The position numbers and the translations under genes are program-made. Under the pieces are notes generated by a model. That model was not told the origin of the DNA. It searched no databases and worked only from the letters and a program-made list of their open reading frames with translations. DNA of 633 nucleotides from Escherichia coli (GTDB lineage Bacteria > Pseudomonadota > Gammaproteobacteria > Enterobacterales > Enterobacteriaceae): NCBI RefSeq assembly GCF_003334305.1, contig NZ_QOWS01000073.1; one strand, written 5' to 3'. This document shows, piece by piece, positions 1 through 633 of this stretch. Position 1 is the stretch's first letter. Every line of letters starts with the position of its first letter.

Positions 1-633
1 TCATCAGGGACATCGCAAACAATATGAAGACGGATTTCTTCTCTGCCGTGACTCTTTTCACTGATTGCGTAACTGTCATGCTCTGGATTATTTAATTCTT
101 TCAGCGGAAATTTTTCCTCAAAGGCTTTATTTAGCCGCCCCTGGTTTCCTTTTACCGCGAATAAATAATCACCTCCCTGTTTTTGTATCTTCTCTGCAAT
201 ATCTTTCTGGCAACCCATCGCATCAGTTGTGATGATTTTTCCTTTAATATCCAGCATGTTAAGAAGTTCTGGGATAGCTGTAATCTCATTAGATTTCTCA
301 TCCGTCTTGATCTGTCCGATGACCAGACTGTGCATTGTTGAGAACGCACTAATGACATGAATCGCTCCCCTGCGGCGACTCTTGTCATAAGAGTGCCGGA
401 GCGTTTTTCCATCAATTGCAATGACGTCTTTATCATCTGAAGAATGGCAGTCACGCATCCAGTTAATAAAGCACTCATGAAATTTTGCAGGACTGATACA
501 GGATACAACTCTGGCAATAGTATCGTGAACAGGAATACCATTTTCAAAATCACCATATTGCTTCAAGAAATCGAGATGTGTTTCCCCGAAATCCTCTATA
601 TCTTCCCAACTTTCTGCACCAGAAATAACGGCA
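1..633 (-). CDS. ISAs1-family transposase (H-repeat-associated protein, ISEc1-like), internal fragment, partial at both ends; in-frame codons occupy 632..3
   Basis: Seen in sequence: manual translation of the reverse complement in this frame gives 210 consecutive sense codons with no stop across the whole window. Recognition: motifs such as [50 protein letters not shown] and [33 protein letters not shown] match, from memory, the H-repeat / ISAs1 transposase family (E. coli YhhI/YdcC/YbfD-type proteins, roughly 378 aa). The ORF track missed it only because no start or stop falls inside the window. No database search was run, so paralog identity and percent identity are unknown. Confidence 0.9.
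1..633 (-). mobile_element. Internal portion of an ISAs1-family insertion sequence (H-repeat element); terminal inverted repeats and target-site duplication not in window
   Basis: Inferred from the transposase CDS that fills the window. ISAs1-family elements are single-ORF insertion sequences of roughly 1.2-1.4 kb (established knowledge), so the element boundaries must lie beyond both window edges. GC of about 41% by hand count suits a mobile element, but the host genome GC is unknown. Confidence 0.8.
222..413 (-). other. Region containing two candidate catalytic aspartates of the DDE motif: Asp codon at 411..413 (in VIAIDGKT) and Asp codon at 222..224 (in IITTDAMG)
   Basis: Seen in sequence: both are GAT codons on the minus strand, 63 residues apart, each following a hydrophobic beta-strand-like stretch as is typical of the first two acidic residues of DDE/RNase-H-fold transposases. 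Assigning them as the catalytic residues is inference from general DDE architecture, not from an alignment. The catalytic Glu would lie downstream of the gene, beyond position 1. Confidence 0.4.

What the first reader, a model, noticed from the sequence alone, without database searches (positions are those of the whole stretch)
1..633. Window-spanning ISAs1/H-repeat transposase gene on the minus strand, missed by the ORF track
A 210-codon stop-free frame covers the full window on the minus strand and encodes a protein I recognise as an ISAs1-family (H-repeat-associated) transposase. It is absent from the ORF track because it has no in-window start or stop. This is a known mobile element, not a novel system, but it is the correct annotation and it means the locus sits in or beside accessory DNA.
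Basis: partly seen in the sequence, partly recalled or inferred. Interest (0 to 1): 0.4.

Follow-up and report, generated by a model that had tools for sequence, protein, structure and literature searches.

The report
Internal piece of ISEc1 transposase gene

Summary
The minus strand carries one stop-free frame across all 633 bases (210 full codons). No shuffle out of 5,000 reached that length, and substitutions between copies fall mostly on third codon positions (dN/dS 0.05-0.17).

The translation scores 282.8 bits against NCBIfam's ISAs1 transposase model (cutoff 70) and has the Pfam architecture DDE_Tnp_1_assoc + DDE_Tnp_1. The DNA is 100% identical to chromosomal genes annotated "ISAs1-like element ISEc1 family transposase" (yhhI type). 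Matches occur in 5,343 of 5,426 complete E. coli genomes.

Caveats: the window cannot be assigned to one locus, whether its own copy is intact is unknown, and H-rpt transposition has not been observed in E. coli. This is already known; interest is low.

The parts
1..633 (-). Internal fragment of the ISEc1 (H-rpt) transposase coding sequence: element nt 881-249 read on the + strand. Full codons 36-245 of 378 occupy bases 632-3. There is no start, stop or element end in the window.
   Evidence: Open frame; exact match inside the 1,137-nt gene of L001 and L002 at residues 36-245; NCBIfam ISAs1 transposase 282.8 bits.
456..632 (-). C-terminal two thirds of the N-terminal DDE_Tnp_1_assoc domain (protein residues 36-94), all-helical in the model. 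A DNA-binding, end-recognition role is inferred.
   Evidence: Pfam PF13808, i-Evalue 3.9e-20, window aa 1-59 matching model positions 30-88 of 88; helices 26-38, 44-53, 55-59, 71-79 and 83-97 in the AlphaFold model.
75..434 (-). First part of the DDE transposase catalytic domain (residues 102-221): the RNase-H-like core strands and helices.
411..413 (-). Codon GAT for D109, the first catalytic aspartate (motif A-I-D-G-K), on the first core strand.
   Evidence: D in 116 of 117 family members that are 35-54% identical to the query; neighbouring G110 and K111 are invariant; lies in strand 105-113.
222..224 (-). Codon GAT for D172, the second catalytic aspartate (motif T-T-D-A-M-G-C-Q), just after core strand 168-171.
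   Evidence: D in 116 of 117 family members; D1-D2 spacing median 63 residues, range 58-69.
141..152 (-). Codons for K196-G-N198-Q199. K196 and N198 are invariant in the family and their role is unknown. The window encodes N198, whereas K-12 YhhI has T198.
   Evidence: K196 and N198 each 117 of 117; the K-12 difference is at window base 145.

Best explanation
The window is nt 249-881, reverse-complemented, of ISEc1. This is the 1,291-bp insertion sequence originally described as the H-repeat (H-rpt) of E. coli Rhs elements. The window encodes residues 36-245 of its single 378-aa ISAs1-family DDE transposase.

Shown here: the frame is open and evolves as a coding sequence. It belongs to the ISAs1 transposase family. 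Identical copies are complete elements with an AAGGAG ribosome-binding site, ATG at nt 145, the stop codon ending at nt 1281, and terminal inverted repeats CAGGG(A/C)AAGAT. The full protein is predicted to have a Tn5-like RNase-H-fold core with a beta-sheet insertion between the second D and the E.

Inferred from established knowledge of DDE transposases (Tn5/IS50): the helical N-terminal region binds the terminal repeats. D109, D172 (both in the window) and E306 (outside it) hold two Mg2+ ions that catalyse hydrolysis at the element ends and then strand transfer into a target. The Tn5/piggyBac-like insertion domain suggests a hairpin-type cleavage step.

For the E. coli element, transposition has not been observed. 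The copies look largely sedentary and chromosomal, and at least some have exchanged sequence by recombination.
Against: Nothing contradicts the identification. The limits concern function. The window lacks the first 35 and last 133 codons, including E306, so the intactness of this particular copy is unknown. No flanking target duplication was found at any of six sites. H-rpt transposition has not been observed (PMC3032704), and ISAs1 elements gave no clear circular-DNA signal in K-12 mobilome sequencing (bioRxiv 10.1101/2024.07.17.603846). [quoted passage not shown] No sequence-level relative is in the PDB, and the geometry of the three acidic residues in the model could not be inspected.
Confidence: 0.97

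Rival explanations
1. The window comes from a defective ISEc1 copy: a pseudogene whose stop, frameshift or truncation lies outside the 633 bases. The locus would then encode no functional transposase even though the window's frame is clean.
For: Several paralogous copies are annotated as pseudogenes with internal stops or frameshifts: ydcC in O157:H7, both tandem copies beside yafV and the second copy in L004. Partial matches of 8-53% of the window exist in some genomes. Many truncated 'partial' transposase proteins are in the database.
Against: Both 100%-identical copies that were opened are complete 378-aa genes. The 25 listed 100% hits all lie under features named as ISEc1 family transposase. 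The window's allele keeps every invariant family residue in its span, including N198, which K-12 YhhI has lost.
Confidence: 0.12
2. The gene is a domesticated transposase kept by E. coli for a host function at Rhs loci, for example promoting exchange of Rhs C-terminal tips, rather than a selfish mobile element.
For: Near-universal presence (98% of genomes) at recurring chromosomal positions such as yhhI and ydcC. Strong purifying selection, including between yhhI orthologues (dN/dS 0.16, on few substitutions). No target duplications. Almost absent from true plasmids and phages. No transposition observed (PMC3032704).
Against: The full IS anatomy is retained with conserved terminal repeats at every copy. 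Identical sequence sits at different loci in different strains. Copies decay freely into pseudogenes at the same loci. Low dN/dS among paralogues is also expected for an IS that spreads only from active copies. No host phenotype is known.
Confidence: 0.05
3. The open frame is a chance or non-coding feature, or the real gene is another ORF in the window (the 134-aa minus-strand ORF at 152-556 in another frame, or a plus-strand ORF).
For: The ORF tool lists a 134-aa ATG-initiated ORF at 152-556, and it stays open in 96-99%-identical copies.
Against: 0 of 5,000 shuffles reach 210 codons. The family HMM E-value is 3e-84. Third-position substitution bias fits the 210-codon frame, whereas the 134-aa frame accumulates 11-14 amino-acid changes from 22-25 nucleotide changes. 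Plus-strand ORFs are at most 55 aa. No Rfam family reaches its threshold.
Confidence: 0.01

Closest known systems
ISEc1 / H-rpt (H-repeat) of E. coli K-12 Rhs elements; genes yhhI, ydcC, ybfD, ybfL
   Same: 99.05% nucleotide identity to K-12 yhhI over the window, with 2 of 210 residues different. Same 1,291-bp element length and same ends in K-12. RefSeq names the identical genes 'ISAs1-like element ISEc1 family transposase'. Copies sit next to rhsB and other Rhs remnants.
   Different: It is a non-K-12 allele with six substitutions, including S43 for G43 and N198 for T198. The exact locus of origin cannot be determined because identical sequence occurs at several loci.
ISAS1 of Aeromonas salmonicida (family prototype)
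   Same: Same transposase family by the NCBIfam model named after it. Single-ORF DDE element.
   Different: ISAS1 is experimentally mobile and generates direct repeats (PMC3661141). For the E. coli element no transposition has been observed (PMC3032704), and no flanking repeats were found at six sites. I did not compare the two sequences directly.
Tn5 / IS50 transposase (IS4 family)
   Different: Only about 10% sequence identity, and no match by sequence search of the PDB. The NCBIfam IS4 model scores 18.4 bits against a cutoff of 115. The protein is shorter (378 against about 477 aa) and has a different N-terminal domain (PF13808). It works like Tn5 in its core but is not an IS4-family member.

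Membership tests
ISAs1 family of insertion sequences | Transposase matches the family-specific profile above the curated threshold | tested here: met
   NF033564 transpos_ISAs1 (equivalog), 282.8 bits against cutoff 70, E 3.1e-84, window aa 1-207 on profile positions 8-217 of 314.
ISAs1 family of insertion sequences | Domain architecture: N-terminal DDE_Tnp_1_assoc followed by a DDE_Tnp_1 catalytic domain | tested here: met
   PF13808 (3.9e-20) then PF01609 (3.5e-18). The same pair is precomputed for nearly all homologues.
ISAs1 family of insertion sequences | Conserved D, D, E catalytic residues on an RNase-H-like fold | tested here: met
ISAs1 family of insertion sequences | Element of about 1.2-1.5 kb with a single ORF and short terminal inverted repeats beginning CAGGG (ISfinder family description, recalled from memory) | tested here: met
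   Not in the window itself. In copies identical to the window the element is 1,291 bp with one 378-aa ORF and ends CAGGGAAAGAT / CAGGGCAAGAT (10 of 11; 11 of 11 in one L004 copy).
ISAs1 family of insertion sequences | Target-site duplication flanking the insertion | tested here: inconclusive
   No perfect direct repeat of 2-12 bp at any of six sites, although ISAS1 is reported to create direct repeats (PMC3661141). Old insertions and recombination between copies erase duplications, and from memory ISfinder lists 0-10 bp for the family, so absence does not exclude membership.
ISAs1 family of insertion sequences | Demonstrated transposition | not testable with these tools
   The literature held here says none has been observed for H-rpt (PMC3032704). 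The prototype ISAS1 is reported to transpose, and the family member ISPmar4 is listed among the elements identified in Paracoccus.
ISEc1 (same element or isoform) | Near-identity in DNA and protein to the reference element (ISfinder isoform convention, recalled from memory: over 95% amino-acid and over 90% nucleotide identity) | tested here: met
   99.05% nucleotide and 99.0% amino-acid identity (208 of 210) to K-12 yhhI over the window; 100% to RefSeq genes named ISEc1 family transposase. ISfinder itself was not available to query.
IS4 family | Transposase matches the IS4 family profile above threshold | tested here: not met
   NF033592 transpos_IS4_1 scores 18.4 bits against a cutoff of 115. 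The similarity to Tn5 is in fold only.

The most novel reading that the evidence does not exclude
ISEc1 in E. coli may be a transposase retained under host-level selection at Rhs loci rather than a selfish mobile element. The evidence that does not exclude this: it is near-universal, sits at recurring positions, has dN/dS 0.02-0.16, shows no target duplications, is almost never found on plasmids or phages, and has never been seen to move. It might, for instance, drive exchange of Rhs toxin/immunity tips. The window's allele keeps the family-invariant N198 that K-12 YhhI has lost, so it would be a better test subject than the K-12 gene.
Probability: 0.05. Interest if true: 0.45.

Novelty: already known. 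Interest (0 to 1): 0.07.

Why it matters
It matters only as correct annotation. The window should be labelled as an internal fragment of the ISEc1 (H-rpt) ISAs1-family transposase gene. It is a multi-copy repeat, so it cannot be used to place the window in a genome, and reads from it will map ambiguously. It suggests, but does not prove, a neighbouring Rhs toxin/immunity region. It opens no new biological question. The only open point is an old one: whether H-rpt/ISEc1 is still mobile in E. coli.

Tried and rejected
- Sequence search of the PDB with the full protein found only chance-level hits (E about 1). The structural relationship had to come from a predicted model and fold search.
- Rfam at a permissive threshold gave one sub-threshold eukaryotic scaRNA hit (22 bits against 60), which I dismissed.
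- The promoter scan is at the shuffle expectation. Two terminator-like hairpins against 0.5 expected are weak and lie inside the coding sequence; I did not interpret them.
- The 134-aa out-of-frame ORF at 152-556 was considered as an overlapping gene and rejected, because its sequence is not conserved at the protein level.
- The comparison of the two ydcC orthologues (L003 against L005) is invalid. The O157 copy contains an indel, so the fixed-offset slices are out of register (376 'differences'). I disregard that line.
- The fuzzy end-search also printed spurious 'left end' matches and one false 1,327-bp 'element' in L005. I ignored these.
- I could not inspect the model's coordinates, so the spatial clustering of D109, D172 and E306 is untested.
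- ISfinder was not available. Family descriptors attributed to it are from memory.

Full report
**Observation.** I translated the 633-base window in all six frames. The minus strand at offset 1 is open for all 210 codons, at + coordinates 632 down to 3. The other five frames contain 5, 6, 8, 18 and 24 stops. At 41.4% G+C, none of 5,000 shuffles of the window produced an open run of 210 codons in any frame (mean longest run 76, maximum 202). The per-frame probability is about 4e-7.

**Identity.** The 210-aa translation matches NCBIfam NF033564, 'ISAs1 family transposase', at 282.8 bits against a curated cutoff of 70 (E 3.1e-84). It covers profile positions 8-217 of 314. The IS4 model reaches only 18.4 bits against a cutoff of 115. 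Pfam gives DDE_Tnp_1_assoc (PF13808, window aa 1-59, 3.9e-20) followed by DDE_Tnp_1 (PF01609, aa 67-186, 3.5e-18).

Megablast against 5,426 complete E. coli genomes finds matches in 5,343 of them, with a median of five places per genome. Of 24,099 places, 24,077 are on chromosomes. Many hits are 100% identical, and the listed ones lie in genes annotated 'ISAs1-like element ISEc1 family transposase', some named yhhI. K-12 MG1655 yhhI, which lies next to rhsB, is 99.05% identical: six substitutions and two amino-acid changes. The window is therefore a non-K-12 allele of the element first described as the H-repeat (H-rpt) of Rhs elements. It is listed in ISfinder as ISEc1; that last point is from my own knowledge and the RefSeq product name.

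**Anatomy, recovered from identical copies.** Two loci contain the window at 100% identity. One lies between yhhJ and the rhsB/yhhH region (L001). The other lies between nfrB and cusS, beside a zincin-like toxin-domain gene (L002).

- Aligning the two loci, similarity begins abruptly at CAGGGAAAGATCATCA and ends at TAATCTTGCCCTG. This defines a 1,291-bp element.
- Its ends are imperfect inverted repeats, CAGGGAAAGAT and CAGGGCAAGAT (10 of 11 matching).
- An AAGGAG Shine-Dalgarno sequence lies 7 nt before the ATG at nt 145, and the stop codon ends at nt 1281. The single ORF is 378 aa.
- The window is element nt 249-881, reverse-complemented, and encodes residues 36-245.
- The same ends and length (1,290-1,291 bp) recur in seven copies at six sites, including K-12. 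None has a flanking direct repeat of 2-12 bp.

**Evidence that it is a real, constrained gene.** Against copies 96-99% identical, substitutions inside the window fall 19 of 22 and 21 of 25 on third codon positions, and dN/dS is 0.05-0.17. Over the whole gene, intact copies give 0.02-0.16, including 0.16 for the yhhI orthologues of two strains, although that rests on only 8 substitutions. One line, L003 against L005, is invalid because an indel puts the sequences out of register.

**Catalytic residues and fold.**

- A search of 1.84 billion cluster representatives found 30,606 relatives at E <= 0.001 and 2,395 at E <= 1e-30.
- In an alignment of the full protein with 116 full-length relatives that are 35-54% identical, D109 (A-I-D-G-K) and D172 (T-T-D-A-M-G) are D in 116 of 117 sequences. 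E306 (H-W-H-V-E-N) is E in 117 of 117. The D-D spacing has a median of 63 residues and the D-E spacing a median of 133.
- D109 (window bases 411-413) and D172 (bases 222-224) lie in the window. E306 does not.
- No PDB entry is detectable by sequence.
- An AlphaFold model built on that alignment is confident: mean pLDDT 95.0, pTM 0.92.
- The model's topology fits an RNase-H-like core. D109 is on strand 105-113 and D172 comes directly after strand 168-171. A four-strand beta insertion spans 221-286, and E306 is on helix 304-316.
- The window therefore encodes most of the N-terminal helical domain, the whole beta1-beta5 core and the first hairpin of the insertion domain. It lacks the E-bearing helix and the C-terminal helices.

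**How it most likely works.** By homology with Tn5 and other DDE transposases (established knowledge; inference for this protein), the N-terminal helical region recognises the terminal repeats. The D109/D172/E306 triad binds two Mg2+ ions that catalyse end cleavage and strand transfer.

The Tn5/piggyBac-like insertion domain hints at a hairpin step. [quoted passage not shown]

The family prototype ISAS1 does transpose, into vapA and abcA with direct repeats (PMC3661141). The ISAs1-family member ISPmar4 is listed among the transposable elements identified in Paracoccus (PMC3281130).

[quoted passage not shown] A K-12 mobilome study found no clear circular DNA from ISAs1 elements (bioRxiv 10.1101/2024.07.17.603846).

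The element looks sedentary in my data too. Only 22 of 72,556 plasmid records match, and several of those are megabase-sized records. Only 2 of 50,697 phage records match. No target duplications were found.

**Limits.** The window cannot be assigned to a locus, because identical sequence occurs at several. It also cannot show that its own copy is complete. Paralogous copies with internal stops or frameshifts are common, although both 100%-identical copies I opened are intact. I put about 0.12 on the source copy being defective outside the window.

**Comparison and verdict.** It is a member of the ISAs1 family and an isoform of ISEc1/H-rpt. Its catalytic core works like that of Tn5/IS4 transposases, but it fails the IS4 family profile and is not an IS4 member. 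The feature is already known and the interest is low.

The only non-trivial reading left open is the old question of whether H-rpt is a domesticated or host-retained transposase at Rhs loci. I rate that at about 5%.

Noticed in passing
window 144-146 (minus strand; codon for residue 198): The window encodes N198 in the K-G-N-Q motif, which is invariant in 117 of 117 family members. K-12 MG1655 YhhI has T at this position through a single base change at window base 145. The reference K-12 copy may therefore be functionally impaired while the window's allele keeps the consensus.
   Followed up: partly
L001:5591-6881 against L002:5591-6881 (element nt 1-1291): The two copies at different loci and in different strains differ at 19 positions, but none falls in the 633-nt span of the window (P about 2.8e-6 if differences were spread uniformly). 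This mosaic pattern suggests recombination or gene conversion between ISEc1 copies.
   Followed up: partly
window 152-556, minus strand, +1 frame relative to the transposase: A 134-aa ATG-initiated ORF overlaps the transposase frame and stays open in copies 96-99% identical and in K-12. It accumulates 11-14 amino-acid changes in the two most divergent copies, so it looks unconstrained. Openness was not checked in more distant homologues, for example Salmonella at about 86% amino-acid identity.
   Followed up: partly
L001, L002, L003, L004 (two copies), L006, L007: element flanks: None of seven ISEc1 copies at six insertion sites has a flanking direct repeat of 2-12 bp, although the family prototype is reported to make target duplications.
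   Followed up: partly
L004:2601-5888 and L006:2601-4966: ISAs1-family copies occur in tandem pairs, one intact or near-intact and one degraded, among small orphan genes (SUKH-3 immunity-like, YdcD, Rhs core fragments). In L006 the second copy is only about 68% identical to the window, so it is a different ISAs1 lineage sitting beside ISEc1.
   Followed up: no
L006 (NZ_AP023206.1, 404-kb 'plasmid pMTY18781-1_lncX3'): This record, labelled a plasmid, carries the chromosomal housekeeping neighbourhood fadE-ivy-yafV around the ISEc1 copy. Several other 'plasmid' hits are 1-5 Mb records. Most plasmid matches are probably chromosomal DNA or mislabelled replicons.
   Followed up: no
proteins P0090, P0098, P0073, P0007, P0094: Some database proteins fuse the ISEc1 transposase to other domains: PF05954 (Phage_GPD/VgrG-like), PF05593 (RHS repeat) plus PF03811, and PF20148. 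Two Shigella sonnei entries are named 'receptor'. These are probably read-through or gene-calling artefacts at Rhs/VgrG junctions, but I did not examine them.
   Followed up: no
window 216-234 (+ strand) and 589-571 (- strand): There are two terminator-like hairpins against 0.5 expected from shuffles. The + strand one overlaps the D172 codon. The excess is weak and lies inside a coding sequence, so I did not interpret it.
   Followed up: no
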